Origin: a virus
DNA length: 64,000 bases
Virus record (IMG/VR): IMGVR_UViG_3300021959_000022
Location: 1 to 64,000 of that record
Reading direction: 5' to 3' (one strand)
A program made the translations under genes and the position numbers. Positions 562 through 51,467 of the stretch are shown in pieces (position 1 is the stretch's first letter; each line of letters begins with the position of its first letter). The notes under the pieces were generated by a model. That model searched no databases, was not told the origin of the DNA, and saw only the letters and a program-made list of their open reading frames with translations.

Positions 562-771
562 ATGGCAATAATTAAGTCAAAACATGCTGTCATAACCAAA
601 CAGGATCTTCACTCACAGTGTGTGATGGTGATCAAACGCATGTTGTTGGATCATTCTCCCAAAGAAGTTGCCGAAATGATGAGTGAATTTTTAGAATCAC
701 ACTGTTCGGATTCACGTCCTGATGTTGAACTGCAAGAGTTTATTACCAAGTTCCACAAGCAACATCGTTAA
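562..771 (+). CDS. small hypothetical protein
   Basis: 69-aa ORF with ATG start after an AT-rich tract. Confidence 0.55.
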   Translation: MAIIKSKHAVITKQDLHSQCVMVIKRMLLDHSPKEVAEMMSEFLESHCSDSRPDVELQEFITKFHKQHR

Positions 772-1175
772 CTGATTGACTTCGTCAATCGCTTGTCGCT
801 TACGCTCAAGCATTTTCTTTTACGAAGTAAAGTCGTCGTCATCACGTTGATGAGCAGTCATAATTCTGCTTCACAGCAGAACTATGTTTCCTTGATACAT
901 CACGTTTGTATCGCAGTCATCCAATCTCGCTACCGTAGTCGGGCGGTTGTGCTGTACCCGTTAGCTCATTCTATACAACGCGATCAGTCCACACCTTGAT
1001 TGAATAATTTATGGACTGACTGTGGGTGCTTCTGTTTCATTGCAGAGCCACATCTTTTTTGCCTTGTGCATCAAGGGATTCGCCGCCATTCTTCATGGAG
1101 TAGTTCCCTGTTACCAGCGATGCTATGTAGCCTTAAGTTGTGTTTGAAGTTTTTGCCTTGATTGCCTAGCACTCA
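772..1175 (-). ncRNA. candidate structured non-coding RNA (family not recognised)
   Basis: At least 8 stem-loops in ~400 nt. The 12-bp stem at 859-886 reads CAUAGUUCUGCU-GUGA-AGCAGAAUUAUG on the minus strand (GNRA loop, G-U wobble; an A-C mismatch on plus). Duplicated motif at 840-861 and 898-920. Confidence 0.55.
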
Positions 1176-1196
1176 TATATACACTTGTATTTCGAG

Positions 1197-2270
1197 ATGG
1201 ACCTTCAAAGTGAATTTAATGTTTGGTGCAAGTGGGATCCACTGCAATCTGTCATGGTTGGCAACTGTGTTAACCAGAATTTTTTCGAGCAGGTTGCCAA
1301 CAGTGAGATCAAGGATAAACTCACAACCATGTTGGTAGAGACGCAGGAAGACTTGGATAACTTGGCGGATGTTTTCAGACAGCACGGAGTCAGAGTGTAC
1401 AGACAGAACATAGACCATGATCTAAGGCTGGATCCAGACAAGCCGGCCACCAGACACCAAAACATTCAAATGCAACCCAGAGACGAATGGATGGTACTGG
1501 GCAGGCATTTTCTCGGAACCAACGATGGCATGGATGATGGCGACACATCTATTTTTTCCACCGTGCGACGACAAGAATACACCGCTTGGAAAGAGCTGTG
1601 CAGGATTCCGGAATTTTTGATAATACCATGTAGTTGGACCATGGTGGGGCGTGACCTGTTCATCGACCTGTGGGACGTGAGAAATGCCATATCGCACAAC
1701 TCTGGCACAACCTCGTTGCAATCGGTACAACGGCATGTGGATCAATGGGCGAGAAAATGGTTGCCGGAGGTCAAGGTGCATTGGATAGAAGTAGGCGGTC
1801 ACAATGATGCCTGTTTCCATACCTGTAAACCAGGAGTCATATTGTCCATCGTTGACGTGATTGACTATAACCAATCTTTTCCTGGTTGGAACGTCTTGGT
1901 AATACCTCCCGAGGAGAGTGCGGACAACATAGAAAAATTTTCCATGATAAAACACAAAACATCTGGCAAGTTCTGGATGCCCGGCGAGGAGGACAACACA
2001 GAACTCTTGGAATACATCAACACCTGGCTGGATGACTGGGTGGGATATGTGGCGGAAACTGTGTTTGATGTGAATGTGATGATGATAGACGAAAAAACTT
2101 GTGTGGTAAGCAATCACAACAAAATGGTGTTTGACTATTTCAAAAAACACAACATAGAACCCATAATTGCCCCTTTGCGGCACAGATATTTTTGGGATGG
2201 CGGCATACACTGTTGCACTCTCGATCTTTACAGACAGGGCGAATGCCAACAGTACATTAATTGGTCGTAA
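1197..2270 (+). CDS. amidinotransferase family protein (glycine/inosamine-phosphate amidinotransferase-like)
   Basis: N-terminal WDPLQSVMVG, PRD, GGHND (His) and C-terminal FWDGGIHCCTLDL (catalytic Cys). ATG 1197 preferred over TTG 1185. Confidence 0.85.
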   Translation: MDLQSEFNVWCKWDPLQSVMVGNCVNQNFFEQVANSEIKDKLTTMLVETQEDLDNLADVFRQHGVRVYRQNIDHDLRLDPDKPATRHQNIQMQPRDEWMVLGRHFLGTNDGMDDGDTSIFSTVRRQEYTAWKELCRIPEFLIIPCSWTMVGRDLFIDLWDVRNAISHNSGTTSLQSVQRHVDQWARKWLPEVKVHWIEVGGHNDACFHTCKPGVILSIVDVIDYNQSFPGWNVLVIPPEESADNIEKFSMIKHKTSGKFWMPGEEDNTELLEYINTWLDDWVGYVAETVFDVNVMMIDEKTCVVSNHNKMVFDYFKKHNIEPIIAPLRHRYFWDGGIHCCTLDLYRQGECQQYINWS

Positions 2271-2301
2271 TTTTTAACAAAATCTCGTATAATAAATTTA
2301 A

Positions 2302-3051
2302 ATGAAGATATGGTACGAACATCCGTTTGGTGTAGTAAGCACAGCAGACATGCAGATAGTCAAAGTGCTGGCAGAAGTCAAACCTGAAGAACAAGAACAA
2401 GCACTCACACAAGGATTTATAGAAAAACCTTATGGTGTGTGGCAACAAGTACGGTCCACAAGGATCGACATCAAAAAATACATCGAGTCCGCCAAGCGTT
2501 TTTCTCAACGCAAAGATGTCACGGTGTCGAAGTGGGACGGTGTGTTTGCACAAACCAATCGTAATTTATTAATTCACATCTACGATGAATACATCAACAA
2601 AAAAGGATACCAAGACCATTTTATATTCAATGACTATGAATTCACCAACAAAGATGTGTTCTACATCTATTCACACGATGACAATGTGCATGCTTGGTCC
2701 GTGTGGACCAAGTACGGCCAATCTGTAGAAAATTGGCAATTTGCATGGGACTATGTCAGACCTGAATTACAACTTGGTTCGTTTTCGATCGATCATGAAA
2801 TACGTCAAGCACACGAAAAAAACTACAACTACTTTTATCTATCTGAAGGCTATGACAACTCGTCTGCCTGGAAAGCAGACATGCCTGGATTCGAATGGTG
2901 GAATGGTTCTGAATGGAGTCAGGAAGCAGATCGTTTTGCTTTCTTGTGTGATGCCGAAGATGGCGCCACAGATCTAAAAGACATCCTTGATGTTTACGAA
3001 AATCCCTGCACCAGAGAAAAGTTTTGGAGCAAGAAAAACATCAGTCGTTAA
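2302..3051 (+). CDS. arginyl-tRNA-protein transferase (ATE/Bpt)-like GNAT protein
   Basis: WQQVRSTRID and C-terminal LGSFSIDHEIRQAHEKNYNYFYLSEGY..SSAWK resemble the ATE C-terminal signature (SLG.YS.L.EI..A......YYLG.....YK). Confidence 0.6.
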   Translation: MKIWYEHPFGVVSTADMQIVKVLAEVKPEEQEQALTQGFIEKPYGVWQQVRSTRIDIKKYIESAKRFSQRKDVTVSKWDGVFAQTNRNLLIHIYDEYINKKGYQDHFIFNDYEFTNKDVFYIYSHDDNVHAWSVWTKYGQSVENWQFAWDYVRPELQLGSFSIDHEIRQAHEKNYNYFYLSEGYDNSSAWKADMPGFEWWNGSEWSQEADRFAFLCDAEDGATDLKDILDVYENPCTREKFWSKKNISR

Positions 3052-3544
3052 AACGCCACCGCACTACATCGTCGAGATTTTCTTCACTCCATTGGTCATA
3101 GTATTTTGTTGCTCGTAGATTTTTGCTGAATTGATTTAATCTTTTGAGTCTTTGGATAATCACCAACACAAGTTCGCCATGATTCATTTTCACACCATTG
3201 ATCAATTCTTCGTCATCGGGGTGATCTTCCATAGCCACAACATCGTGTGATTTGAAATGTTTGTTTAATTTGCGGATCTGTTCTGATAATAAACCTGGTG
3301 AAATTTCCCTGCGTGTGGATGCAAGAATAATGGCTTCCCATTCATCCGTCCAGTCTCGCATTTGTGCTTTGCATTCATCCCAGATTGCAGAATTGCACTC
3401 AACGATTTTGACTTTGTTTTGCAGTCTGAATTGACGAGCATATGGACAAGGAGGCATGTTGCCGAACGATGGATGCGGCACTTCCACAAATGTTTCCATC
3501 CATTTGTTTATCGATTCAACAATGTGGTCAGAGGCCTGGTGCAT
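3041..3544 (-). CDS. DUF1415-like hypothetical protein
   Basis: W..FVE....PPCPYAR and DHPD motifs resemble DUF1415 (CPFA, HPD); paralogous to 61408-61881. Confidence 0.55.
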   Translation of the reverse strand: MHQASDHIVESINKWMETFVEVPHPSFGNMPPCPYARQFRLQNKVKIVECNSAIWDECKAQMRDWTDEWEAIILASTRREISPGLLSEQIRKLNKHFKSHDVVAMEDHPDDEELINGVKMNHGELVLVIIQRLKRLNQFSKNLRATKYYDQWSEENLDDVVRWRFND

Positions 3545-3560
3545 GTATTATATACTTAAT

Positions 3561-3965
3561 ATGACTTGGATGTATCAAGGAAAACCTGTTGAACAAATAC
3601 CCGAAGGGTACGTGGGGTTCGTGTATGAAATCACCAACACACAGTCGGGCAGGAAATACATCGGCAAAAAACTTGTGGAATTCAAAAAGTCCCGTCCACC
3701 GCTCAAAGGCAGGAAAAACAGACGCAGATACAAAGTTGAGTCGGATTGGCGAGAATACTATGGTTCATCTGATGCACTCACTGAGGATGTTGAACAGTTG
3801 GGTCGTGACAATTTCACCCGTGAGATATTATTTTACTGTAAAAATAAAGCAGAACTATCTTACATAGAAGCCAGAGAACAGTTCGCTCGAAAAGTGCTGG
3901 AATCAGATGCCTACTACAATGGACACATCCGTGTCAGAGTGCATGGCAACATGTTCAAAAAATAG
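3561..3965 (+). CDS. GIY-YIG nuclease-domain protein
   Basis: GFVYEITN..SGRKYIGKK, YYGSS, F.REIL, E..EQ and YYN motifs. ATG 3561 preferred because the upstream extension overlaps the divergent gene. Confidence 0.8.
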   Translation: MTWMYQGKPVEQIPEGYVGFVYEITNTQSGRKYIGKKLVEFKKSRPPLKGRKNRRRYKVESDWREYYGSSDALTEDVEQLGRDNFTREILFYCKNKAELSYIEAREQFARKVLESDAYYNGHIRVRVHGNMFKK

Positions 3966-3991
3966 TATATAAACACTATAAGGACATCATC

Positions 3992-5428
3992 ATGATAGAG
4001 ACACTATTTCCATTATTTGCTCCCTCCACCGGCATCGGCATTCTGGCTGTGTATGGTGCATTTGCCCTATCAATGACCTATTGGTACTCGAGGGGTTACA
4101 ACGATTCAAAAACCAGTTTCCTTGTTGCGAGACGAGAACTGGGCACATTCCAAGGTTCACTCAGTGTGGCAGCCGCTTGGCTGTGGGCACCTGGACTTTT
4201 TATTAGCACACAACAGGCCTACGTGAATGGCTTGGTGGGACTGTTTTGGTTCTGCCTGGGCAACTTCCTCACCCTGGGAGCATTTGCCTATTTTGCAAAA
4301 AAGATAAGATCAAATGAACCAGAAGGATTCACATTTTCTGGATATCTGCGTAAGAGATTTTCCGGCCGTGTGCAGTCACTATTTGTGGCAGAAATGATGC
4401 TACTGGCCACCTGTGCTTTTGCCATCAATCTGTTGGCAGGTTCGAAAACTGTGGAAGTTTTGACAGGCATCGATTACACACTGGCCACTTTCCTAATGGC
4501 AGGTGTGGCCATCCTTTATTCATTCAGAACAGGCCTCAAAGCCACAGTGATCACAGAAGTCATCAAAATTGTTGTGGTATGGACCGGTGTCATCATATTG
4601 GTGCCGTGGGTGATATCATCAGCAGGCGGTTGGGACACAGTCATCGCAGGCTTGGGAGGCAAGTCCGGTCAAGGTGCTCAAATATTTGGCACACCATTTG
4701 CTTGGGGAGTGTTCACAGGATTTGGTGCGGCAGCTTTCTTGGGTCATATGGGAGGACCATGGGGAGACAATTCGTTCTATCAGCGAGCATTTGCCATCAA
4801 GAAAGATTCTATCATTCCTTCTTATGTGTTGGCATCGTTTGTGTTCATTGTGGTGCCCATCATGATGGGACTGCTCGGATTTGTGGCCGCGGGTGCTGGA
4901 TTAGAAATTCCGGGTGCGATGGTTGGCACAACCAATGCCATCACAATTGCCACATTCCTGCCACCCGCAGCTGCCATTGTATTTGTGTTCATGGTGTTTG
5001 CTGGATTGGTGGCAATCCTTGATTCACAGTTTGCTTCTGTGGCCAACATGACTGGTCATGACATATTCAATCAATTCAAGGGCGGTTCAGAAATTGCATG
5101 GGCTCGTTGGGGTATGATCGCATTGGCAATAGCAGGATTGATTGTTGCAAATATTCCAGGCATGCAGTTGGTATATCTGTTCCTTTTCTTTGCTGTGTTG
5201 AGAGCGGCTGTTTGGTTGCCATCGATGATAGCACTGTTAAAACCAACATGGATCACAGAACAGGGCATGTTCTGGGGAATTGCCATCTGTGCCACAGTTG
5301 GAGAAATCATGTTTGTAATGGGTAAATTAGGATACTCAGACACAGCATTCCAAGGAACTCTGGTTGCAATATTCGGTTCACCTGTGTTAACATTGTTGAT
5401 AAGCAATGTCGGAAAACAAAAAACCTAA
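3992..5428 (+). CDS. sodium:solute symporter (SSS) family transporter
   Basis: 478 aa with about 13 hydrophobic segments; FLVARRELG, S.AAAW.WA, YLRKRFS, YS..GLKA.VIT, YQRAFA and AILDS motifs typical of SSS/DUR3-like transporters. Confidence 0.85.
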   Translation: MIETLFPLFAPSTGIGILAVYGAFALSMTYWYSRGYNDSKTSFLVARRELGTFQGSLSVAAAWLWAPGLFISTQQAYVNGLVGLFWFCLGNFLTLGAFAYFAKKIRSNEPEGFTFSGYLRKRFSGRVQSLFVAEMMLLATCAFAINLLAGSKTVEVLTGIDYTLATFLMAGVAILYSFRTGLKATVITEVIKIVVVWTGVIILVPWVISSAGGWDTVIAGLGGKSGQGAQIFGTPFAWGVFTGFGAAAFLGHMGGPWGDNSFYQRAFAIKKDSIIPSYVLASFVFIVVPIMMGLLGFVAAGAGLEIPGAMVGTTNAITIATFLPPAAAIVFVFMVFAGLVAILDSQFASVANMTGHDIFNQFKGGSEIAWARWGMIALAIAGLIVANIPGMQLVYLFLFFAVLRAAVWLPSMIALLKPTWITEQGMFWGIAICATVGEIMFVMGKLGYSDTAFQGTLVAIFGSPVLTLLISNVGKQKT

Positions 5429-6038
5429 ATTATTAATTGTTACAGGTCCCCAAGGATCTGGAAATCATCTATTTGCCAAAATCTTTAACATGCATCCAAG
5501 TGTTAAAGGTTGGCAGATGGAGTGGAAGGAATGGCAAGGACATCATCAAGAACCCTTCCAGGAATATTGGCAGGATCCGTCAAAACTAAAAGACTTTGTG
5601 GTAGCCCCGTTCGAAAACTTCGTGACCTCCATATCATGTCCTTACTACAAAGATAAAAAACCTCAAACTCCCAAGTACGGTGAATTTATCAGTGAAGCAA
5701 AAAAGTATTTTGAAGTCAAAGTTTTAATAATCGCTAGAGACAGGAACATCTTGAAGTTGCAACAACAACGATTAAGGGGAGAACACACCACTCCCAAGTT
5801 TATGGATCAGATGGAAAACTTTGATGATGTACATTTTGTTTCACACGAAGCATTGTACTTGTATCAAGGAAAATACTTAGAAAGTCTTGCAAAACAATTA
5901 GATTTTCCTATTGCACACAATCACACCACACTGTTGGATGACTTTTTGAAAAAAGATGCTAACATAAAGTATGTCAAACCAATCGAAAAGGGAGATTTCG
6001 ACGACCAAGCAACACAGTCATCGTTGATAGATTCATGA
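5406..6038 (+). CDS. P-loop / sulfotransferase-like protein
   Basis: LLIVTGPQGSGNHLFAKIFNMHP resembles the sulfotransferase 5'-PSB loop; VLIIARD resembles the 3'-PB motif. Confidence 0.5.
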   Translation: MSENKKPKLLIVTGPQGSGNHLFAKIFNMHPSVKGWQMEWKEWQGHHQEPFQEYWQDPSKLKDFVVAPFENFVTSISCPYYKDKKPQTPKYGEFISEAKKYFEVKVLIIARDRNILKLQQQRLRGEHTTPKFMDQMENFDDVHFVSHEALYLYQGKYLESLAKQLDFPIAHNHTTLLDDFLKKDANIKYVKPIEKGDFDDQATQSSLIDS

Positions 6039-6547: not shown

Positions 6548-8311
6548 TCACTCTACAACATCTGTGAACGCATAAGAAGTAAACCCATTTTCCTTGGTCA
6601 CTTTCAACACATTATTCACACGACCTTGCAGTTCGTCTCTGTGTGATATTAGGTAGATGTTCTTGTGGCGCTCACGGGCAATCTGTTTTAGAATACCAAT
6701 GGCATTTTCCACACCTGCTGTGTCCATGCCCGAATCAACCAATTCATCGATGAACATGGTGTTGATGTTGTGATACAGCATTTCCCACACATCTCTGAAT
6801 GCCCAACATAAGCTTAAAATTAATCGGTTTCTTTCACCTCTGCTCAAATTATCAAAGTCGAGATCTCTGCCCAACTCTGTAATTTCCACAGTGAGATCAG
6901 ACAAGAATTTTACTTCATGCGGCAGTCCGGTTTTGTCCAAATAGTAGGCCAATCTCATATTCAAATAAGTCAAGTTTTGGTCGATCACTCTCTTTCGCAC
7001 AAACGAGTCTTTAGAAGTCAACAGTTTGTATAAAAACTCTTGATGATCCTGCAGTTTGCGTAGGTTGTTCATTTTGACATATGACAGTTCCTGCACAGCA
7101 GAAGTTTTCAGTTCGTCAATTTGTTCTTGGTATGGGTCAGTTTCTACTGTCTTTTTTTCCAACTGTTCGCCCAAGTATTCTACCGTGTTTTCATGCTTGT
7201 AAGCCTGCTGTGCGGTGTCGTAATAGGTTTCCGGCTGTTCTAAGTCACCTATGGATTTTATCTTTGCTGTGAGGCTGGATTCCTGCGAAACCAAGTCTTC
7301 TATGTACTTTTCGAATTCTTGACGATCTGTCTCTAATTTGCTGACCATGGCATGATGCTTGTCATCTTCCATGGCACCGCCGCATGTGGGACAGGTTTTG
7401 TTTTGAGTTTTTTCGATTGAATCCAGTATTTCTGTTAACTGTTTGGTTGACTGTTTGACAGCAGTTTGCACGGTGGCAAGTTCACGCTCCCAAGTGCGTT
7501 TCTTTTCATAATTTTCATTGTATGCGTCTAATTTTTTATGTCGTTCGATTTCATCCTTGATGTCAACTTTCATCAGTTCTTCCAATGATAGGGTGAGTTT
7601 CTCTATGTCTTCCTTCTGCTGTGCTTTCCAGCCACGCTGACGTGTTTCCAGTGCGTCGATCGATGATTGTATTTTTTCATTGTTGCGTTGAATTTCATCC
7701 AATCTAATTTCTTCTTCTTTGATGACTTCTTTGGTTTCTTTGATTTCTTCTTTGAGCACTTCTGCTTTTTCTGACAACACAGTAATACCCAACAGCTGTT
7801 CTATGATGTCTTTTTGTTCGTTAGCCTTCAACCCAAAAAATGGCGGAGCGTATGTGTGCAGTGCCACAATGTTTTGAAACATAATATGTGACATGCCCAA
7901 TATCTTTGTGATGTCTTTTTGTGTTTCGCGAGAATCACCTTGTGCTTCGTCTGATGCTTCTTCTTCACCATCCACATAAAATTTTATGATGGCAGGTTTT
8001 CTGCCACGCTCTATCTTGTATTTTTTGCCATCTATCTCAAACTCACAGGAAACCACCATACCACGTTCATTGGTTTTGTTGACAAGATTATCTCTTTTTA
8101 TATTAGTGAGTGCATCACCGAACAGTGCGAACGACAGTGCATTTAGAATAGTAGTTTTTCCTGTGCCGTTCCTTGATCCCGCATCATCACCACCCAAGTC
8201 GATGTTTTGTCCCAACACCAGTGTCAAATCCTGTCCCTCGAAGTTGATGGCCTGTGTGACATTGCCCACCGACATAAAGTTTTTTACTGTGAGTGTTTTA
8301 AATTTGATCAT
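6548..8311 (-). CDS. gp46: recombination endonuclease ATPase subunit (T4 gp46 / SbcC / Rad50-like)
   Basis: KNFMSVGN, Walker A NGTGKTT, coiled coil with CPTCG zinc hook, LSRGE signature, MFIDE Walker B, ISH H-loop. Confidence 0.95.
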   Translation of the reverse strand: MIKFKTLTVKNFMSVGNVTQAINFEGQDLTLVLGQNIDLGGDDAGSRNGTGKTTILNALSFALFGDALTNIKRDNLVNKTNERGMVVSCEFEIDGKKYKIERGRKPAIIKFYVDGEEEASDEAQGDSRETQKDITKILGMSHIMFQNIVALHTYAPPFFGLKANEQKDIIEQLLGITVLSEKAEVLKEEIKETKEVIKEEEIRLDEIQRNNEKIQSSIDALETRQRGWKAQQKEDIEKLTLSLEELMKVDIKDEIERHKKLDAYNENYEKKRTWERELATVQTAVKQSTKQLTEILDSIEKTQNKTCPTCGGAMEDDKHHAMVSKLETDRQEFEKYIEDLVSQESSLTAKIKSIGDLEQPETYYDTAQQAYKHENTVEYLGEQLEKKTVETDPYQEQIDELKTSAVQELSYVKMNNLRKLQDHQEFLYKLLTSKDSFVRKRVIDQNLTYLNMRLAYYLDKTGLPHEVKFLSDLTVEITELGRDLDFDNLSRGERNRLILSLCWAFRDVWEMLYHNINTMFIDELVDSGMDTAGVENAIGILKQIARERHKNIYLISHRDELQGRVNNVLKVTKENGFTSYAFTDVVE

Positions 8312-20400: not shown

Positions 20401-20884
20401 AGGAAAATACAAATTAGTGTTCGGTCCTGGCGCCGAGTCTGAACTGCAAGCAACATTCAAGATTGTTAAAAATCCTGCCACCAACGTCAGCGACAATCAA
20501 TTGAAATCATCTGTGGTGGAATCGATTAACACTTATTTTAGTTTGGGGCTCTGGGATTTTGGAGACACTTTTTATTTTTCAGAATTAGCCGCATTCTTGC
20601 ATAATTCATTGACACCTGATGTGTTGAGCGTGGTCATAGTACCTGCTCAGGCATCGAGTGGATTTGGTTCATTGTTTCAGATCAACTCTTCGGAGAATGA
20701 AATTTTGATATCATCAGCCACTGTGGATAATGTTGAGATGATCACATCGATAACTGCTGAAAAAATCAAAGCCACAGGCAATGTTGTAGTATCGACTGGT
20801 ACATCATCATCGACTACTGGCACAGCAACAGTAACATCCACAGCAACTTCTAGCAGTTCTAGCAGTTCTGGGGGTTACTACTAA
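17417..20884 (+). CDS. gp6: baseplate wedge subunit (gp6-like, extended)
   Basis: DFDTIR..L..YL....FNDY..S....LID.IAY...ARENF...[12 protein letters not shown]; FSDG.YG..P; NRMITPEDY. Confidence 0.85.
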
Positions 20885-23800
20885 TGGCAAAATCAACTCG
20901 CCCTTCACATAAACTATTACCACAAACTTTTCAAACCGAAAAGAATAAAAAATTCCTATCCTCCACTCTGGATCAATACATAGAACCATCCACATTGGAT
21001 AAGGTTAATGCTTATGTAGGACAAAAGTATCACAGCAGTTTTAGGAAGGATGACACATATCTTCAAGAACAGAGCAAAGAGAGACAAAATTATCAACTGG
21101 AAACAGCTACAACTTATAAATCTAATGGTTCCGAAATTGATTTCATTGCACCATACATAGATGTGGTCAATGAAATAGGTGCACGCGGTGGTGACAAGTA
21201 CAGACACGACAAACTATGGCAAAGTGATTTTTACTCATATGCTCCGCCGGTAGACGCAGACAAACTCATCAACTTCAGAGAGTATTACTGGATCCCTAAT
21301 GGTCCTATCTCGGTGCAGTCTAACATAGACAACCCCGGAAGTGTGATCACTATTAATGTAACAAATGAAGGTTTAACGGGATGGAAGTTCAACAACAAGG
21401 CCAATGTAAATCCTGACATCACTGTGTACAGAGGCAACACTTACAAGTTTGTAATCAACGCTCCGGGCATGAATTTTTGGATCAAGACAGATTATGGCAC
21501 AGGACGTGACAGCACAGCTAACACAGATTACGTGAACAACAACGGAGCCTCGTCGGGCGAGGTAACTTTGTACATTCCGACGTCGGATTCGTCTACTATA
21601 CCGGAAACTGTTTTATATTACCAATGCGAAGATCATCAACCTATGCAGGGTCGATTAATAATCAAAGACCTTGCCAATGAAAATTTCGACATCCAGGAAA
21701 ACCTTATAGGAGTAAATGGATTCACAGACAGTCTTGGCCTTGTTTATTCATCAGGGCAGAAGATAACATTCCAGGGTGATCCAGTGTCCGACAGACCACA
21801 GACGTTCTACGTTGAAAATGTTGGCAGAAGTATCATGTTGGTAGAGCAGAAAGATCAATTGGTTTATGAGCTTTATGGAATCAGCGAGATTGAACCATGG
21901 GACTACAACGGAGTGACTGGTTGGGATTCCAAGGGTTGGGGCGAAACCATAGGTATAATTGAGTTTCCTGATTACTGGACCATAAACAGAGCATCACAGG
22001 ATTTGAACGCATGGTCCAGAGGCAACAGATGGTTCCACAGATCGGTCATAGAGACAGCCAATCTTAAAAACAATCTTCAAACAACTCTGAATGAAAACCA
22101 GAGAGCCAAAAGACCTATAGTAGAATTCATACCAGGATTGCAACTGTTCAATCACGGTAGCAGAGGCAAGGGAGTTGATTTTGTCGATACCAAGACCACT
22201 GATGCATTCAGCAATCTGCAGGGTGCGTTAGGATTGAGCATTGATCAGACCACAGTGACCGAAGGCTCCACTATCGTGTTTCCTAATGATCCTGAGCAAA
22301 AGAATAAAATTTTTACCGTCAAGTTTGTAGTTCTGGGAGACAGCAGTCTAAGGATCACGTTCGATGATGATTCCACCACTGTGCAAGAGGGACAGAGCAT
22401 ATTCGTCAAAAAAGGTAAAACGCAAAAAGGCAAGACATACCATTACAAAAACGGTGCATGGGTGTCGAGCCAGGCAAAGACAAAGTTGCAACAGAAGCCT
22501 TTGTTTGATGTTTTCGATGATGCCGGAATAAGTTTATCAAAAAATGACACCTATCTGTCGACTACATTTGCTGGTTCCACACTGTTCGAAGTTGCCACTG
22601 ATTCGACTCAAGGAACTCCTGACACTGTGTACAACACAAATGTGATTTACCAAAGATATGGATTGTTGTCGGACATTCAGCTGAATGATTCTTTCAACAA
22701 GGACACATTCCAGCACATAACAGACCAAGGCCTTGAAACATTCAACCTCAGACAGTATTTTTTGAAAGTGAATTCGGGTAGTTCGTACACACTTTCCAAC
22801 AACTGGAAGAAAAATGTAATCGAACATCCTCAACAACGCATAGAAGAATACACAGCCAACAAGGATCAAACAGACTTTGAAGTCAAGGCGTGGAGAAATT
22901 CTGCACAATTGACCGACATCACACTACAAGTTTTCATAGACGGTGAGTTGACCAAAGATTATGTGAGGAAGAACACCAACAAGAACTTGATAGTCCGGTT
23001 GAACAAAAAACAACCACAAGGAACTCAGATAACCATCAAGTCTTACTCTGAGAGAGATTTTCCTACCACAAATGGTTTTTGGGAAGTTCCTGTGACAGTG
23101 GTCGGAAACCCATTGAACAAGAATCTTTTATCTTTCACACACGGTGACATATCTTCACACTATAAGACCGGTGTGCAAAACCACCCCTCATTCACTGGAT
23201 TGGTATCGGGGGCCAACAACAGCAGAGATCTTGACAATGTTTTTGCTTATTCTACTAAATTTTTGCAACATTCCAGCAGTGCACCATTGGCGTCTGTGTT
23301 GACCAGAGATCCTGTTTTGGACATTGTGTCTGCGTTCAGATCTTCGTCCAATGACTATGAAAAAATCAAGAAATCTTTAATTTCAGCTTGCGACACTGTG
23401 ACACTCAACGGCACAGTGGCCGAACAGTTGGACCTACTTTTGTCATACATCAATTCTAACAAAAACAGTTCTATGCCATACTTTTCATCTGACATGTTGG
23501 CATATGGCACCAATAAGAACACACTGTCCTACACAGTAACTGACGCAAACATCACTTCGTATCCTATCACAAGTGCTTTCGATCTGGAAAAATTATCGGA
23601 GAAAAGTGTGTACGTTTACATCAACAATGTGCAGATACTAAACGGAACAGATTATGTGTTTACTGATCTACAAGATTCGACAGCGATCATCGGTGTGGAC
23701 ATAAAAAAAAGTTTGAATGTGGGAGATGTCATCATCATAGACGAATATGTTTCTACACAAGGATCGTACATCCCGGCAACACCCGCCAATCTGGGTTTGG

Positions 23801-26800
23801 CTCCTAAATACACCCCGAGAAAGTTTTTGGATGACACTTATCAATCAGAGGATTCTACAACACAAGGCATCAATGTGATAGAAGGACATGATGGTTCCAT
23901 CACAGTGGCATATGATGATTTCCGTGATGACATATTATTAGAGTTTGAAAAGAGAATATACAACAATATCAAAACTATCTACAAGGATGACATCATCAAC
24001 TTAGAACCAGGCTTCTATAGATTGAATGATTACAGCACTGACCAGTATGACACTTTGATAGCCAGAGAATTTTACACATGGTCGGGCGTGAATGCTATCG
24101 ATTACTCCACTAATTCTACATATGATTCTGGAAACCCATGGACGTACAAATGGACAGGCTATCAAGCCAAGTTCGATGATTCGCAACTCAAGGGTTTTTG
24201 GAGAAGGATATACCACCTATGGTTTGACACAGACAGACCACACACCGCTCCTTGGGAGATGTTTGAATTTTCAGAAAAACCAGAATGGTGGGATTCAGTG
24301 TATGGACCAGCTCCTTACACAGGAGGCAACCTACTGCTTTGGAAACACGTTGAACAAGGGTTCATACCGCAAGGATCGAGAAAAGGATACTACAGGAGGT
24401 ATGCCAGAAACGGAGTCCTTTCCAACATACCAGTAGACGATGCTGGAAGATTGTTGGATCCTGCCAATGCAGGAATCATCAAAGGCGGCACATCATCTGA
24501 ACAACTGCAATCATCTTCTTGGGTTTTTGGAGATTGGGGCCCACCAGAGACTGCATGGAGGAAATCGTCATCATTCAGATTCGCACTACAGATAGCAAAA
24601 TTTTTGGCCAGACCCGGGCAGTATTCAGGATTGTATTTCGACACGTCCAGAATTAAAAAGAACACAATAGATCAATATGTTTACGACGGCAAATATCGAG
24701 ACACCATCACAAACTATGCCCTTCCTTCGGGGACAACTTTAACCGCAGGTTATGTCAATGTGTTGTATGATTATGTCAAAGGTTTGGGTTTCGGCATCGA
24801 TTACATAGCCAATAGGTTATCCAATCTTGATGTGCAGTTGGCCTACAAACTGGGTGGATTCAGCAACAAGGAAAATATGAATGTTGTGGTAGGCAGCTAC
24901 AGTCCTTCTTCGACTAACAAGAGTGTATACATTCCTAAAGAAAATTTCAATTTATACTTGTTTAAAAGTGCACCTATCGACAATGTCAATTACTCGGGTG
25001 TGATAGTTGAAAAATCCGCCGGTGGATACAAACTGAGTGGATACAACAACTTTGATAGATCATTTTCATATTACCCACCTCGGATCAACAACAACAATAG
25101 TGTTGTGGTGGTGGGTGCAACAACAGAATCGTACGTGGATTGGCGAGCGAATGGATTCTATGCTTCCGGATCGGTTGTCAAGAACGGCGGATTCTTCTAC
25201 AGAGCCAACAACAATATTTCCAGCGGACAAACCTTCGAAGAGGACAATTGGAGCAAGATAGGCGCAAGCCTTCCTCTCAAGGGTGGAGTAAGGGTCAACA
25301 AATACAAGGATTACCTGCAGAATGTCGCAACCATAACATACGGCACTGAAGTAAGTTCCACACAGGAAGTGGCCAACTTCTTGTACGGTTATGATCAATA
25401 TCTTAAAACCAAAGGGTTCGTGTTTGACGAGTTTTCAACAGAACTCAACACTCCCATTGACTGGGATCTTTCAGTCAAGGAGTTTTTGTTTTGGAGCACC
25501 CAGGAATGGGAAAATTCAGCAGTCATAACACTTTCGCCGGCATCGGCCAAATTAAAATTCCAGAAGGAAAACACAATTGGTGATGATCTCATAGGCGGTG
25601 ATAATTTTTATACAGTATTACAACAGGATGGATTCCCCATCCAGCCCACAAACTTGTCCACCAACAGAACTAATGGACAATTTGTGATAGAAACCAATCC
25701 AGATGAGGATGGAATCTATAACGCAGACATCAGGGCCATACAGAAAGAACATGTGCTGATACTGGACAACAAGACTTCATTCAAAGATGTGATATATGAT
25801 GACTTGATGGGAGTCAGACAGGACCGTGTAAAATTGGTGGGGTGGAAAACATCCAACTGGAACGGAGATATTTACGCTCCCGGTTACATCGTGGACACTG
25901 CAAAAGTTTATTCCTGGACAACATTTACAGATTACAAGAAAGGCGATGTAATCAGCCATCAAAGCAACACATACGTTGTGTTGAGTAATCATAATTCCGG
26001 AGAAAACTTCAACAATTCTTACTACAGGTTGAAAACAAGTGAGCCGCAAAAAGACCTACTACCGAACTGGGACGCCAAGGCCGAATCGTTTAGAGATTTT
26101 TACTCCTTAGATACAGAAAACTTTGATGCAGAACAACAAAAGTATGCACAGCACTTGATAGGTTTCCAGACCAGAACGTATTGGGAGAACTTGGGATTGG
26201 ATGATTTGACCCAATACAAATTCTACCAAGGAATGATCAAGGACAAAGGCACAATCAAACCCATACAGCGATTCAAGTCTCCGACCACTGTGCAAGATGC
26301 AGTTGAGTACAATGTGTACGAAGAAAATGCTTTCAGAGTGGGAGAGTTTGGGTCATACAGGACAGATCAAAATTATCTCTTTGCTTTGGATGACAAAACA
26401 CACAGACAGCAACAGCAAGTATACAACATCACGCAAAGTGTTGTCGATGACACACAAAATATCATAAATGTTTCAGCATCTGAGATGCAGGACAGACCCT
26501 ACGAATTACAGTTTCCTACTTTTGCAAAATATTCATATGACACACTTAACACCCCGGATCATATTTTCCAGTATCCGATGGCTGGTTATGTACAACCACA
26601 TCAAGCAAAATTTAACGCCTATGACGAATCACAGTTGCTTAATCTTTCAGTCGCAAATATGTTCGAAGGAGATAGGATCTGGTTGGCCAACACTGCCAAC
26701 AAGGACTGGGAGATTTATAGAGCTACGACCATAGACAATTATATAGAATTTTATGAAGCCAGAGATGGAATACTTCAGTTCACCACATATAACCCACACG

Positions 26801-29800
26801 GACTTAATCCCGGAGATTACATTGTGGTCAAGAATTTTGACAATGCCATCGATGGCATCCACAAGGTAACTGAATCACCGGACAGCACAGATGGATTGTA
26901 CAAGTTCAGTGTTCCATTCGTTGAAACATTCGACAGCACAAAGCAAAACGGCACCATCATGAAATTGACTTCTGTGAGACTTTCGAGTGTGGATGACATT
27001 GTAAACATCACTCCCATCAATGGATTTTCAACAGGCGACACCGTGTTTGTTGATAATGGATACAAGACTAACACAGGCTTATGGAAGATATATCAACTCA
27101 ACAACAACTCTGTGTTCGAGAAAAAACAAAAATTTAAGAGTTTAATATCTACAGCGGCAGACACTAATTTTGGTTCTGCAGTGGGAATCAATTCAAACAA
27201 CGGTACAGTATTAGTGATAGGATCACCCAACGAAAATGCCGCGGTGATTTACACAAGGAACTCTGATGCAGACAATTTCAAGCTCAAAAACGAAGTGGTG
27301 TACACATATTTGAATTCAGATTCTTCAGACAAAAATGGCACCAGTGTTGCAGTGTCAGGCGACGGAAACACAGTATACTCTGGTTCACCTTATTCCAAGT
27401 CCATTATGAGATTGAATCTTGCTTCCGCTTACACATCTTTTGTACCCGGACAACTCATATACGGCACAGACAGTGAAGCCACAGGAAGGATCTTGATAAA
27501 CGACACAACAAATAATGTGTTGTATGTCAAGGTAATAAGTGGAGTTTTCACCACAGAAAATTTATGGTTAGAAGATTCGTCCAGTTTGGTATCCATATCG
27601 TCAGTGGTAGGTACCACAACAGAAACTAATCAAGGTTTGGTGCACATTATGACCAAAGATCAGTATGGCAGTTGGGGTATCACCCAATCTGTGGCATCCC
27701 CGACATTAGGCAGCGACGAGTACTTTGGATGGTCTGTGGCTTCTTCGTCTGATGGCACATATCTGTTTGTTGGAGCGCCGTCCAGCACCACACTTGCCAG
27801 TGATTCCGGATTGCATTCAGGCAAAGTTTACGTTTACAAGAAGACAAGCGGCAAGTACATATACAATCAAACACTCACACCAGGCAGTTCATCCCAATCG
27901 ATAGATAAGTTTGGATTCTCCATAGCAGTCAGCGATGATGCTAAGGTGCTCACAATCAGTTCGCCATATTATGATCTCGACTCATCGTCATTCGGCGACA
28001 GCGCCACAGACTCTGGTTCTGTCTATGTTTATAGATTAAACGATGACACTTACTACTATCAAACACAAGAAATAACCAGTCCTAATAATCAAGGCGCCAA
28101 CTTCGGGTATTCAGTGGGCATCAGCGCCACAGACAAGGACTTGTTGATCGGGTCACCACAAACCATAGTAAATGAAAATCCACAAGGCGCTGTGTATTAT
28201 TACAAATTAAATTCATCCTCGCACATCGGGGACGGATCCACAAACGCATTCACTCCAAACTTCACTGTGTCATCTGATACAGTTTCGGTTTCTGTGAACG
28301 GCAACACAGTATATGATTATACCACGTCGGGCAATGTTGTGACATTCGGAACAACTCCTTCGATAGGTGATGCCATAGTGATTTCGCAGTACAAGTTGTA
28401 TCAGACAATCAATCAACCCGTGTACAAAGCCAACAGCAAGTTTGGTCAGCGTGTTGCTGTTGATGGCAAAAGATTAATTGTGCATTCTTTAAATTTCGGA
28501 CCCAAGCAAAAAACAACTTTTGACAAATTTTTGACGGATGGGTCTACTGTGACTGCGGAAACAACATTCGACGGCAAAGCAACTTCATTTGTAAGCACTG
28601 TTTCTAACACCGGCGCCGCATTTGTGTTTTCTAAATTAGATACTAAATTTGTTTACGAATCTGAATTACAACCCAAGGATCTTTCATCCAATGACAAGTT
28701 TGGTTCGGCGCTGGCATCATACAACAGATCGATATTTGTTGGTGCACCCGGCCAGAGCGTGATTGGATCCGGAGACTCCACTTATTCGGGAGCGGGTCAA
28801 GTATATTGGTTTAAAAAACAATCAACAGATGCGAGTGGATGGGAATTGATACAAACTCAACCAACTTTGGTGGATCATAATAAAACTAAAACAGTGCAGG
28901 TTGTGAACAAACAGCGTCCATCATTGATATCAAGATTAGAACACATAGACCCAGCCAAAGGCAAATTATTCGGTAGAGTCGAGCAAAACATATCTTACAA
29001 AACTCCTTACGATCCTGCAGATTACGATTCATGGACACAAACTAACACCGGGCAGGTCTGGTTGGACACTTCCAAGTTTAAGTTTGCTTGGTACGAACAG
29101 GGTGATTTGAATTTTAGATTGTTGAATTGGGGCAAACTTCATCCGAGTTCCACAGTGCAGGCAAATGAATGGACAGAAAGCGAGTACACTCCGGAACAGT
29201 ACAACAACCTTGCAGGAACGCAAGAAGGAGAAAGTTTAGGAATCACAGGAACTGCACAATCAAACTACGTGGCCAAATCAGTTTACGATCCCAATGTGCA
29301 ACAGTTCAAGAACAAATATTTCTTCTGGGTTTCTAACCCAACTGTGTTACCGCAAGTGTTGTTTAGAACAGTCACAGCCAATCAGATTGCACAGTCCATA
29401 ATTGATCCGAAATCATACAGCCAAGAATACAGTGCTGTGGTTAGAGATGATGCACTCTTAGTTTCATACAATCCTAACAGGATAACCAATGAATTGAGTC
29501 TGCGTTTTGAAAACCAAAGCGAGTCTGAGATACAACCACACAAAGAGTATGTTTTAATTTCTGAAAATGACACCACCACAAACATTCCGACACAGCTGAT
29601 TGAAAAAATGAAGGACTCATTGGAGGGCAACGACATAAATGGTAGAACAGTGCCAGACGTCAGTTTCCCATCCACCATGTGGTATGGTATATTGAACAGA
29701 CCGAGACAGTCTATGTTCAAAGACAGATTCGCGGCGTTGCAAAATATGATCGAGTTCGCCAACAAAGCATTGGCAAAAAAACAATACGCTGGCAACAAGA

Positions 29801-49538: not shown

Positions 49539-49746
49539 TCTCACTCTCAGACAAATGCAAATGGAGTCTGCCCGGGCGTTAGTGGTCATGGAAGCAACCA
49601 ATAACAATCTTTCCAAGTTCAACCACACAGCCAGCCACGACAGCCAAAATTGGTACAGAGCCGTGATAGAATGGTATGTTGATCAATACGGAGATCTGCC
49701 CAGCAAGACAGGTCCGGCCAAAGATGTCAAATTATTGGCCGAATAA
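49525..49746 (+). CDS. small hypothetical protein
   Basis: 73-aa ORF filling the gap between coupled genes. Confidence 0.55.
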   Translation: MDTSNLTLRQMQMESARALVVMEATNNNLSKFNHTASHDSQNWYRAVIEWYVDQYGDLPSKTGPAKDVKLLAE

Positions 49747-49749
49747 ATA
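49743..49749 (+). promoter_or_regulatory. late-promoter-like ATAAATA
   Basis: 5 nt before ATG 49755. Confidence 0.5.
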
Positions 49750-49754
49750 TCCAT

Positions 49755-50378: not shown

Positions 50379-50379
50379 T
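50350..50379 (+). promoter_or_regulatory. possible sigma70-like promoter
   Basis: TTGATT-18 nt-TATAAT, 7 nt before ATG 50387. Confidence 0.4.
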
Positions 50380-50386
50380 AGTTTTA

Positions 50387-51463: not shown

Positions 51464-51467
51464 TAAC

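What the first reader, a model, noticed from the sequence alone, without database searches (positions are those of the whole stretch)
772..1175. Unrecognised ~400-nt structured minus-strand RNA candidate with a duplicated sequence-plus-hairpin module
Seen: the only long intergenic region in a very gene-dense window. Stems at 774-790, 791-811, 839-853, 859-886, 894-912, 940-960, 984-1019, 1021-1052 and 1062-1076. The 859-886 stem has a GUGA tetraloop and G-U wobble only on the minus strand. A module AUGACUGC-x-AACGUGAUG occurs twice (plus 840-861 and 898-920) with different stems, on either side of the GNRA hairpin. CAAGGCAAAAA also occurs twice (plus 1056-1066 and 1150-1160). It has no tRNA, tmRNA or RNase P hallmarks I recognise. 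Inference: a phage ncRNA with paired protein-binding sites, possibly partnered with the nearby GIY-YIG protein (3561-3965), or a replication origin.
Basis: partly seen in the sequence, partly recalled or inferred. Interest (0 to 1): 0.7.

Follow-up and report, generated by a model that had tools for sequence, protein, structure and literature searches.

The report
Twin-box structured RNA of giant phages
The gap holds a real gene for a roughly 400-base, knotted non-coding RNA that matches no catalogued RNA family, is common in uncultured aquatic giant phages, and writes one short variable word twice, as if it holds two copies of a still unknown partner.

Summary
Window 772-1168, minus strand, is a single-copy gene for a ~400-nt pseudoknotted RNA. 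Rfam, tRNA and tmRNA searches found nothing.

- **Structure:** on 28 sequences, 70 proposed pairs are 98.4% paired, against 30-38% when slid. Thirty pairs change on both sides, including a 7-bp pseudoknot. G-U pairs fix the strand.
- **Twin word:** In 156 of 156 unique sequences with both boxes, a 6-10-nt word follows an invariant GACU twice. The varying letters are identical in both copies in 99-100%.
- **Partner:** no complement was found inside the RNA, in flanks, or in a 196-kb record.
- **Neighbours:** the SegE-like GIY-YIG gene is a frequent but dispensable neighbour (76 of 108 loci). That fits a homing endonuclease beside a conserved gene. Replication origin and protein-coding readings fail.

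Function is unknown. My best guess (about 0.4) is a stand-alone scaffold gripping two copies of one outside partner.

This scan flagged the same family on many other genomes. I took the name "twin-box" from those notes.

The parts
772..1168 (-). Whole RNA gene, about 397 nt, from the first invariant AGGC to just past the last hairpin.
   Evidence: This is the extent of conservation in the alignments. The 5' end is inferred from relative L029: a TTGACC-18-TATAAT promoter (11 of 12) ends 7 nt before its AGGC. The 3' end is inferred from where conservation stops. Neither end was mapped.
1174..1181 (-). Weak -10-like stretch (TATATATG) upstream of the RNA. The -35 position overlaps the start codon of the divergent gene at 1197.
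   Evidence: Read. The consensus scan called no minus-strand promoter here, unlike in relative L029.
1130..1167 (-). 5' leader with two invariant AGGC motifs (1167-1164 and 1133-1130). It also holds one copy of the window-lineage repeat CAAGGCAAAAA (1160-1150).
   Evidence: Invariant columns; repeat D3.
1068..1123 (-). Stacked hairpin P2/P3/P4: 1123-1119 with 1072-1068, 1109-1105 with 1078-1074, and 1100-1095 with 1089-1084.
   Evidence: helices 1-3: 94-100% of cells paired; 7 of 14 pairs change on both sides. Coordinates.
1021..1052 (-). Hairpin P5/P5a: 1052-1048 with 1025-1021, and 1045-1043 with 1034-1032.
   Evidence: helices 4-5: 3 of 8 pairs change on both sides.
983..1020 (-). Long hairpin P6 (1020-1010 with 993-983). 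Its loop, 1004-998, is the 5' strand of pseudoknot PK1.
   Evidence: helix 6: 9 of 11 pairs change on both sides.
920..926 (-). 3' strand of pseudoknot PK1, pairing with the P6 loop at 1004-998.
   Evidence: helix 7: 7 pairs, 100% of cells paired, 6 pairs change on both sides. The mutual-information scan pairs 1002 with 922 in all 84 sequences. An 8-bp equivalent is read in the divergent relative L276.
929..982 (-). Near-invariant core:
- P7 strand at 982-980
- pseudoknot PK2 (979-975 with 950-946)
- P8 (965-964 with 930-929)
- P9 (960-956 with 944-940)
- P10 (939-938 with 933-932)

   Evidence: P8 and P10 covary. P9 and P7 never vary. PK2 is kept by a U-A to C-G change in 2 sequences and by two compensatory changes in L276. 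The 20-mer at 959-940 is exact in at least 119 viral contigs.
894..918 (-). Twin box 1: invariant GACU (918-915), then hairpin 912-894 whose loop shows the word AACGUGAUG (906-898).
   Evidence: Three stem pairs change on both sides (helix 6).
860..885 (-). Hairpin of 11 bp between the two boxes, with a GUGA (GNRA-type) loop at 874-871.
   Evidence: 98-99% of cells paired; 3-5 pairs change on both sides; G-U pairs alternate with A-U. Coordinates read.
840..859 (-). Twin box 2: invariant GACU (859-856), then the same word AACGUGAUG (848-840).
791..811 (-). Hairpin with an inner G-C, C-G stem closing a GUAA tetraloop.
   Evidence: The outer stem changes from GCUUG/CAAGC to GAAAC/GUUUC between lineages. 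The inner pairs never vary (helix 14).
774..790 (-). Terminal 7-bp hairpin with no U tract after it.
   Evidence: The stem sequence is replaced wholesale between lineages while staying paired. No terminator was called on this strand.
3561..3965 (+). SegE-like GIY-YIG nuclease gene (134 aa from the ATG at 3561), lying 2.4 kb on the RNA's 5' side.
   Evidence: Pfam PF19835, E = 1.9e-37, covering residues 3-123. A relative lies within 3.5 kb of the RNA in 103 of 125 loci.
2302..3051 (+). ATE/Bpt-like GNAT gene, the RNA's other frequent neighbour.
   Evidence: Pfam ATE_C, E = 1e-4, below the curated cut-off. Four of 30 family members match ATE_C, best E = 5.2e-8.

Best explanation
Window 772-1168 (minus strand) is a single-copy gene for a stand-alone, highly folded non-coding RNA of about 400 nt. 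It belongs to an uncatalogued family, called twin-box RNA here, carried by uncultured aquatic relatives of PA5oct-type jumbo phages.

**Shown**
- The fold has about 14 helices, two pseudoknots and GNRA-type loops around a near-invariant core.
- Two boxes lie about 57 nt apart. Each has an invariant GACU followed 8-9 nt later by the same lineage-specific word. The first word sits in a hairpin loop.
- The words have no complement inside the RNA.

**Inferred**
- The RNA is made early by the host polymerase. Close relatives carry a sigma-70-type promoter; the window's own is degenerate.
- It acts in trans as a scaffold. The conserved knotted core engages something that hardly varies, such as a host machine, or is needed for the RNA's own fold.
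- The two identical words each hold one copy of the same outside partner: a dimeric protein, or two molecules or sites of one nucleic acid. That partner differs between phage lineages or hosts, which forces both words to change together.
- The neighbouring GIY-YIG gene is best read as a homing endonuclease that settled beside this very conserved gene, not as the partner.

**My odds**
- Real structured RNA gene of this family: about 0.97.
- Stand-alone rather than a leader of a neighbouring gene: about 0.75.
- Two-copy outside partner: about 0.4.
For: **Reality and strand**
- 30 of 73 RNAalifold pairs are compensatory.
- 70 pairs are 98.4% paired, against 30.3-38.1% when slid. Thirty pairs change on both sides. 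No shuffle of 500 reaches the observed value on any of the five measures.
- the central domain on 47 sequences is 96.3% paired, against 20-48% when slid.
- G-U pairs are present on the minus strand only.

**Breadth**
- Hits: 44, 49 and at least 119 viral contigs; at least 118 metagenome contigs.
- The core is letter-identical between lineages whose ATE-like proteins are only 22-29% identical to the window's.

**Twin words**
- All 156 unique sequences with both boxes share a word of 6-10 nt.
- The five varying positions are identical in both copies in 99-100%.
- At a fixed offset, 110 of 156 are identical. Shuffled partners give a mean of 50 and a maximum of 63.

**Words are unpaired within the RNA**
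- No consistently placed complement was found in 21 word-type representatives.

**Stand-alone gene**
- The ATE-like gene follows on the same strand in 67 of 105 loci. It lies upstream and divergent in 8 more, including the window. It is absent within 3.5 kb in the rest.
- The genomic slot is always gp47, gp46, then the RNA, then baseplate hub.
- There is one copy in the 81.6-kb record.

**Promoter**
- L029 carries TTGACC-18-TATAAT, 11 of 12.

**Homing reading of the GIY-YIG gene**
- It is optional: 76 of 108 loci have it adjacent.
- Its orientation is flipped in L274-L279 and L291, at the same place between gp46 and the RNA.
Against: - No partner was found.
  - The word and its complement are not enriched in the window: 21 matches with up to 1 mismatch, against 21.1 expected.
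  - In flanks of 125 loci, matches of 11 nt or more occur in 3.6% of tests, against 1.8% for shuffled words. That enrichment is slight, and the sequences are related.
  - In a 196,581-base record the only matches are the RNA's own boxes.
- Transcription, ends and strand of the RNA are not measured. RNA-library contigs of four studies cover relatives, but they may include DNA and carry no strand information.
- The window's own promoter is weak, and the scan did not call it. In the main lineage the scan also calls none.
- The pairings of the two GACUGC boxes with CGCG and with the 5' AGGC do not covary. Box variants go uncompensated. The local geometry of the boxes is therefore uncertain.
- A near-invariant core would fit a ribozyme as well as a binding platform.
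Confidence: 0.4

Rival explanations
1. Ribozyme. The near-invariant knotted core is a catalytic centre. The two words are substrate-binding or processing sites, for example self-processing at both boxes or cleavage or ligation of an outside RNA.
For: - The core is extremely conserved compared with neighbouring proteins.
- Pseudoknots and GNRA loops are typical of large ribozymes.
- The words are single-stranded and lineage-specific, like guide sequences.
Against: - Nothing matches any ribozyme family of Rfam at E up to 10, in the window or in L007.
- No substrate complement was found.
- RNA-library contigs run across both boxes without a joint (tables 5 and 8).
Confidence: 0.12
2. Decoy. The words copy, in the same sense, a short sequence that a host or phage RNA-binding protein or endoribonuclease recognises. 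The RNA then soaks that factor up.
For: - The words are exposed, repeated, and share a constant ACA or UGA triplet.
- An early promoter in relatives fits host take-over.
Against: - Two sites are few for a sponge.
- The sense motif is found nowhere else in a 196-kb record.
- It is not enriched in the window.
- The elaborate conserved fold is more than a decoy needs.
Confidence: 0.12
3. Cis-acting leader. The RNA is a long 5' leader that senses something and controls read-through into the ATE-like transferase gene, in the way a T-box leader does.
For: - The ATE-like gene starts about 25-45 nt after the last hairpin on the same strand in 67 of 105 loci.
- No terminator follows the RNA.
- In L007 a terminator-like hairpin with a U run directly follows box 2.
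- The variable triplets, read as codons, are mostly NNC for Thr, Ala or Ser.
Against: - In the window and 7 other loci the gene is upstream and divergent.
- In about 30 loci there is no such gene within 3.5 kb, yet the RNA is intact.
- The terminator-like hairpin is confined to one lineage.
- No T-box family hit.
Confidence: 0.1
4. RNA subunit of the minimal GIY-YIG nuclease. The RNA tethers or guides the small nuclease, which has no room for a DNA-binding domain.
For: - The nuclease is 134 aa, and the catalytic-domain model covers residues 3-123.
- Starting from the nuclease: 20 of 29 loci with a protein at least 71% identical hold the RNA. Five of the other nine lack flank.
- All 6 loci at 65% identity, and L291 at 56%, hold a diverged RNA directly after the nuclease gene.
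- Eight tested loci at 49-54% identity hold none.
Against: - The RNA lacks an adjacent nuclease gene in 32 of 108 loci.
- L250 and L271-L273 have the nuclease with full flank and no RNA.
- Guiding does not explain why the two words must be identical.
- No target complement was found.
- Seg-type nucleases next to conserved genes are the rule in T4-like phages (recalled, not tested here).
Confidence: 0.07
5. DNA element: a replication origin, or a primer RNA of the ColE1 RNA II or T4 R-loop type.
For: - A promoter with no terminator.
- Two direct repeats.
Against: - Conservation follows RNA helices, with G-U pairs on one strand and loop-to-strand pseudoknots.
- There are only two repeats, about 57 nt apart.
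- No A+T-rich unwinding stretch stands out.
Confidence: 0.04
6. Protein-coding on the plus strand (ORF 793-999, 68 aa).
For: - The ORF is open in the window.
- The antisense strand is poor in stops across the family: the median longest open stretch is 76 aa.
Against: - Against the 9 closest relatives, 8 have indels, and all include lengths that are not multiples of three.
- The frame meets a stop before residue 48 in 8 of 9.
- No Pfam family.
- Substitutions follow base pairing.
Confidence: 0.01

Closest known systems
GOLLD (RF01998) and ROOL (RF03087): large ornate RNAs of phages and prophages
   Same: - Several hundred nucleotides, many helices, pseudoknots and GNRA loops.
- Carried by phages.
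- Own transcription unit.
- Function unknown.

The abstract of PMC12286853 (seen in the listing) says they form RNA-only homo-oligomers.
   Different: - No sequence or structure match: both are in Rfam and gave no hit, even at E up to 10.
- This RNA is smaller.
- It sits in a fixed slot between recombination and baseplate genes rather than near tRNA genes. That habit of GOLLD and ROOL is recalled, not tested.
- It has the twin identical words, which I know of in neither.
T-box leader RNAs
   Same: - A folded RNA that shows a short, lineage-specific triplet-like sequence to an outside nucleic acid.
- Here the three most variable letters are mostly NNC.
- The usual neighbour resembles an aminoacyl-tRNA-dependent transferase.
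   Different: - No Rfam T-box hit.
- The RNA is not tied to a downstream gene.
- The word is written twice and spans 6-10 nt.
- I saw no conserved UGGN-type acceptor-binding bulge.
- Complements of several words would need a pyrimidine at tRNA position 37 (my reasoning from recalled tRNA rules).
phi29 prohead RNA (pRNA)
   Same: A phage-encoded structural RNA whose short loop sequences change between related phages under a pairing rule while the fold is kept (recalled).
   Different: - pRNA loops are complementary to each other and build a ring.
- Here the two words are identical, not complementary, and have no complement in the RNA.
- No link to packaging is shown.
Stable RNAs beside segB in the phage T4 tRNA cluster
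   Same: A GIY-YIG Seg-type endonuclease gene sitting next to conserved stable-RNA genes of a T4-like phage (recalled from the T4 literature; not read here).
   Different: - The T4 RNAs are small (about 120-140 nt) and tRNA-linked.
- No homology was tested or claimed.
Candidate structured RNAs of IMG/VR (DNAVirus_X set, PMC10690425)
   Same: The same data source. The authors list 8,495 new candidates from IMG/VR intergenic regions (passages read).
   Different: - Their candidates are 29-151 nt long, so at most fragments of this roughly 400-nt RNA could be among them.
- Their lists are in supplements that I could not open.

Membership tests
Any Rfam 15 family (including tmRNA, RNase P, 6S, SRP, group I/II introns, T-box, GOLLD, ROOL, HEARO, OLE, Polynucleobacter-1) | A match to the family's covariance model at its gathering score. 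| tested here: not met
   No match in the 64-kb window. At E up to 10 there were five weak hits on 500-1400, the best with E = 1.8, all far below their cut-offs. No hit at E up to 10 on family member L007.
tRNA / tmRNA | Cloverleaf or tRNA-like domain with a tag reading frame, as detected by ARAGORN. | tested here: not met
   No gene found in the window.
Box C/D guide RNA (the weak Rfam hits sR14 and sR17) | Conserved C (RUGAUGA) and D (CUGA) boxes across the family. | tested here: not met
   A GUGAUGA-like string exists only in the window's word type. Most relatives have ACCACA-type words instead. The hits score 10-12 bits against cut-offs of 36-38.
Twin-box RNA family (unpublished; named in earlier notes of this scan) | Near-invariant core around the hairpin at minus 960-940. 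| tested here: met
   The window holds the 32-mer, 20-mer and 23-mer that are exact in 44, at least 119 and at least 118 contigs. The central-domain model scores 106.5 bits.
Twin-box RNA family (unpublished; named in earlier notes of this scan) | Two GACU boxes about 57 nt apart, each followed by the same word. | tested here: met
   Window: GACU at 918-915 and 859-856; word AACGUGAUG at 906-898 and 848-840. Family: 156 of 156 unique sequences with both boxes.
Twin-box RNA family (unpublished; named in earlier notes of this scan) | Pseudoknot between the loop of the long hairpin and the strand just before box 1. | tested here: met
   Window 1004-998 with 926-920. In the family, 7 pairs are 100% paired and 6 change on both sides.
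Twin-box RNA family (unpublished; named in earlier notes of this scan) | Genomic slot between the gp46/gp47 nuclease genes and the baseplate-hub gene. | tested here: inconclusive
   This holds in the main lineages. In the window, gp46 lies at 6548-8311, but the RNA is inverted. The side beyond 772 ends at the record's edge after two ORFs.
T-box leader | Position upstream of the regulated gene, with a terminator or sequestrator switch. | tested here: not met
   The neighbouring gene is divergent in the window and absent in about 30 loci. No terminator follows in the window.
Replication origin with iterons | Several regularly spaced direct repeats and an A+T-rich unwinding stretch, conserved as DNA. 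| tested here: not met
   There are only two repeats. Conservation follows strand-specific RNA pairing.

The most novel reading that the evidence does not exclude
The two boxes may be trans-acting, T-box-like specifiers. Each would show a codon-like triplet and hold one tRNA: ACC, GCC, AGC, AGU, ACU, or in the window's type ACG. These are mostly NNC codons for Thr, Ala or Ser. The RNA would then line up two identical (aminoacyl-)tRNAs for the ATE/Fem-like aminoacyl-transferase encoded next to it in about 70% of loci. That would be a ribosome-independent, RNA-templated use of charged tRNA by a phage.

The evidence does not exclude this, but it is thin:
- The twin constraint covers more letters than a codon.
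- Several word complements do not look like anticodon loops.
- The RNA persists without the transferase gene.
Probability: 0.05. Interest if true: 0.9.

Novelty: categorically new. Interest (0 to 1): 0.75.

Why it matters
Large, intricately folded RNAs with near-invariant cores are rare. So far they have turned out to be machines (ribosome, RNase P, introns) or unexplained curiosities (GOLLD, ROOL, OLE).

- **Scale.** This RNA is abundant in ocean, estuary and lake viromes: at least 119 viral and at least 118 metagenome contigs, both scans cut at their limits.
- **Conservation.** It is carried by giant phages with no cultured close relative. Its core is kept letter for letter between lineages whose neighbouring proteins have drifted to 22-29% identity.
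- **The twin-word rule.** Two separated words change between lineages but stay identical to each other. I know of no described RNA family with this pattern. It gives a sharp experimental handle: mutate one word, both words, or swap word types.
- **What is at stake.** Finding the partner would reveal a new way in which giant phages use RNA against, or with, their hosts.

Tried and rejected
**Known RNA classes.** Rfam at gathering score and at E up to 10, and ARAGORN, gave nothing usable. The Polynucleobacter-1 likeness named in earlier notes did not appear for the window or for L007.

**Cultured relatives.**
- blastn of the window's and of L007's RNA against 50,697 phage records found nothing.
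- The nearest cultured kin by baseplate wedge and gp46 are PA5oct, Phosso, Atu_ph07 and SCTP-2, at 33-48% identity.
- PA5oct's syntenic slot and its published ncRNA001 and ncRNA002 (passages and Table 1 of PMC7318152) gave no significant nhmmer or covariance-model hit.

**Partner searches.**
- Word or complement in the window.
- Word or complement in the flanks of 125 loci.
- Complement inside the RNA. In the window's type only, the word can pair over 8 positions, two of them G-U, with the invariant strand near 982-975. Other word types cannot, so I treat this as chance.
- A 196,581-base record holding the RNA.
- The 11-mer of the 5' region: its exact form occurs only inside the RNA. With up to 2 mismatches there were 51 matches against 36.9 expected, scattered in coding sequence.

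**tRNA anticodon pairing.** Rejected as a general rule by reasoning on the word list.

**Box pairings.** Pairing of the two GACUGC boxes with CGCG and with the 5' AGGC does not covary. Box variants go uncompensated.

**Expression.** Logan contigs of four RNA libraries cover relatives of the RNA. One 655-nt contig spans 733-1126 and ends about 30 nt further on. Contigs show neither strand, ends nor level, and may contain DNA, so I count this as no more than a hint.

**Host.** Two exact hits lie in contigs binned as MAGs of Pseudobdellovibrionaceae and Betaproteobacteria TMED41. They are short, with the RNA at a contig end. I take them for mis-binned phage DNA, not host evidence.

**ATE-like protein.** A profile search of solved structures gave only a spurious hit at E = 0.66.

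**Literature.** Three searches found no description of this RNA. The supplements of PMC10690425, which list candidate RNAs from IMG/VR, were not open to me and may hold fragments of it.
Full report
**What is there**

The window is the first 64 kb of an 81,607-base IMG/VR virus record. CheckV rates the record 23% complete, which implies a genome of roughly 350 kb.

Its genes are T4-like: baseplate wedge and hub, and the gp46 SbcC-like nuclease. The nearest cultured relatives are jumbo phages such as PA5oct, Phosso, Atu_ph07 and SCTP-2, at only 33-48% protein identity.

Between the 69-aa ORF at 562-771 and the gene starting at 1197 lies the only long stretch without a sizeable ORF. Its A/T skew matches that of minus-strand genes. 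No frame is open on the minus strand. It folds better than shuffles on the minus strand (z = -3.18) than on the plus strand (z = -1.90).

**It is a conserved RNA gene**

These counts come from exact-match scans, so the invariance of the searched letters is by construction. What they do show is breadth.

The same letters stand in lineages whose ATE-like neighbour proteins are only 22-29% identical to the window's. Around the core, about 400 nt align.

- On 28 non-identical full-length sequences, RNAalifold predicts 73 pairs, 30 of them with compensatory changes.
- A curated structure of 70 pairs in 14 helices is 98.4% paired, against 30.3-38.1% when the 3' partners are slid by 1-3 columns.
- Thirty of its pairs change on both sides, and no shuffle of 500 reaches the observed value on any of the five measures.
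- The central domain on 47 more diverse sequences gives 96.3% paired, against 20-48% when slid.
- Several pairs alternate between G-U and A-U. That is possible only if the window's minus strand is the RNA.

**Pseudoknots**

Two pseudoknots are supported.

- PK1 joins the loop of the long hairpin (1004-998) to the strand just before box 1 (926-920). It has 7 pairs, all cells paired, and 6 pairs change on both sides. A mutual-information scan over 84 sequences found it independently.
- PK2 joins 979-975 to the loop of the invariant hairpin (950-946). It is mostly invariant but is kept by a U-A to C-G change in two sequences.

A diverged branch of the family scores only 30.6 bits with my central-domain model. 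It keeps both knots with different letters:

- PK2 reads GUAGC with GCUAC instead of GUUGU with ACAAC.
- PK1 is a perfect 8-bp match at L276 5559-5566 with 5640-5647.

**Not coding, not catalogued**

ORF 793-999 is broken in relatives. Eight of the 9 closest relatives have indels, and all 8 include lengths that are not multiples of three. The frame meets a stop before residue 48 in 8 of 9.

Rfam (4,227 families) gives nothing at gathering score and only noise at E up to 10. ARAGORN finds nothing. blastn finds nothing in 50,697 phage records. Three literature searches found no description.

**The twin boxes**

- Of 245 loci held, 28 are cut short and 157 have unique box regions. Of those, 156 have two GACU motifs 45-70 nt apart.
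- All 156 share a word of 6-10 nt after the two GACUs (lengths 6:14, 7:55, 8:40, 9:35, 10:12).
- Anchored on the constant triplet, the layout is A, three pyrimidines, three variable letters, AC or UG, then A.
- The pyrimidines are CUC in copy 1 and UCU in copy 2, and they never match each other.
- The five varying positions are identical in the two copies in 99-100% of sequences. Identity decays to about 50% three letters further on.
- Word counts: ACCACA 87, GCCACA 30, AGUACA 10, ACAUGA 9, ACGUGA 9 (the window's), AGCACA 7, AGAUGA 2, ACUACA 1.
- At a rigid offset, 110 of 156 are identical. Shuffled partners give a mean of 50 and a maximum of 63.
- Copy 1 sits in the loop of a small covarying hairpin. 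Copy 2 sits in a linker.

No complement was found at a consistent place in the RNA, in the window, in the flanks of 125 loci, or in a 196,581-base record rated 55% complete that carries the RNA.

**Context**

In the main lineages the order is gp47, gp46, an optional block, the RNA, an optional block, baseplate hub, then a tape-measure-like gene.

- A SegE-like GIY-YIG gene lies directly upstream and divergent in 76 of 108 loci with enough flank.
- An ATE/Bpt-like GNAT gene follows on the same strand in 67 of 105 loci. It is upstream and divergent in 8 more, including the window, and missing in the rest.
- ATE_C is matched by 4 of 30 members of that family, best E = 5.2e-8.
- The window's lineage has the RNA inverted. 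An amidinotransferase-like gene is inserted between it and the ATE-like gene.

I also sampled starting from the nuclease rather than from the RNA.

| GIY-YIG identity to the window's | Loci | RNA found |
|---|---|---|
| at least 71% | 29 | 20 hold the RNA; 5 of the other 9 have under 300 nt of flank; 4 (L250, L271-L273) have full flank and no RNA |
| 65% | 6 | all 6 hold a diverged RNA directly after the nuclease gene, on the same strand |
| 56% (L291) | 1 tested with filters off | yes, with E = 0.006 |
| 49-54% | 8 tested with filters off | none |

The ten other loci at 56-63% identity gave no hit with default filters and were not rerun with filters off.

So one clade of minimal nucleases keeps company with this RNA, in two orientations, but neither needs the other nearby. 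That is what a homing endonuclease settled beside a very conserved gene looks like. It does not show an RNA-protein machine, and guiding would not explain why the two words must match each other.

**How it most likely works**

- Shown: the gene, its fold, its strand, the twin-word rule, its breadth, and its independence from any one neighbour.
- Inferred: early transcription. Relative L029 has an 11-of-12 sigma-70 promoter ending 7 nt before the first AGGC. The window's own -10 is weak, and the scan calls no promoter. In L007 the scan also calls none, although TTGACC and TATAAA can be read in the alignment.
- Inferred: action in trans as a scaffold. Its near-invariant knotted core engages something that hardly varies. 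Its two identical words each hold one copy of a partner that differs between lineages or hosts, which would force concerted change of both words.

I put about 0.4 on this. The rivals are a ribozyme (0.12), a same-sense decoy (0.12), a cis leader of the transferase gene (0.1), a nuclease subunit (0.07), an origin (0.04) and a protein (0.01).

**Relation to earlier notes of this scan**

Look-ups after my own alignment work show that the same family was flagged on many other genomes and called twin-box or twin-word RNA, always with function unknown.

- My tests agree on reality, the knots, the twin words and the loose tie to the nuclease.
- They do not reproduce the Polynucleobacter-1 likeness.
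- They do not reproduce, in this window, a decoy motif in front of other genes.
- New here, as far as those notes show:
  - the position-by-position extent of the twin constraint;
  - the constant CUC/UCU difference between the copies;
  - the two word classes ending in ACA or UGA;
  - the nuclease-first sampling;
  - confirmation of both knots in the diverged branch;
  - the negative result for PA5oct's slot and its published ncRNAs.

**Limits**

- Covariance models were limited to one domain.
- Expression evidence rests on contigs only.
- Hosts are unknown.

Noticed in passing
window 1197-6038: A run of unusual accessory genes lies beside the RNA:
- an amidinotransferase-like ORF at 1197-2270 (only a PHROG of unknown function matched)
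- an ATE/Bpt-like GNAT at 2302-3051
- a DUF6875-like gene at 3041-3544 on the minus strand
- a sodium:solute symporter at 3992-5428 (PF00474, E = 2e-20)
- an unassigned 210-aa ORF at 5406-6038

Seen: Followed up: partly
window 20884-33669: A single ORF of 4,261 aa follows the baseplate wedge gene. It was not analysed.
   Followed up: no
window 42492-56131: At least four paralogous ORFs of about 450-470 aa match a radical-SAM PHROG (phrog_14086). They sit in a long same-strand block of tightly packed genes.
   Followed up: no
window, upstream of many starts (e.g. 16918, 17417, 33703, 36386, 49755): Few genes have a Shine-Dalgarno sequence. Many have a TAAATA-type motif 6-10 nt before the ATG, like a T4 late promoter placed to give very short leaders.
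   Followed up: no
L128 12150-13530 (PA5oct record 75.8-77.2 kb) and L129 14152-14602 (PA5oct ncRNA002): - In PA5oct, the slot between gp46 and the baseplate hub holds about 1.3 kb with only tiny annotated ORFs.
- That stretch follows a perfect TTGACA-17-TATAAT.
- A hairpin of the form UAAACGGGAG...GUCCC occurs there and at the start of the published ncRNA002.
- It faintly recalls the twin-box core.
- nhmmer and the covariance model find no homology.
   Followed up: partly
L274-L279 (e.g. L276 5400-5810) and L291 5656-5778: A diverged branch of the RNA starts right at the stop codon of a same-strand GIY-YIG gene. It keeps both pseudoknots with other letters. Its twin word is GUAUGA, and GACU is not kept.
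   Followed up: partly
L007 7587-7602: In the commonest lineage, a terminator-like hairpin with a U run directly follows box 2, about 100 nt before the end of the conserved RNA. It is absent in the window's lineage.
   Followed up: no
L126, L127: The RNA stands at the ends of two short contigs binned into MAGs of Pseudobdellovibrionaceae and Betaproteobacteria TMED41. These are probably phage contigs binned by mistake.
   Followed up: partly
window 562-771: The 69-aa ORF convergent with the RNA has no Pfam or PHROG match. Its DNA is conserved in the window-type relatives.
   Followed up: no
many loci (e.g. L005, L006, L014, L016, L023, L038, L041): Contigs often end inside the RNA. Twenty-eight of 245 loci are cut within the box region. 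Assemblies tend to break in sequence shared by co-occurring strains, which would explain this.
   Followed up: no
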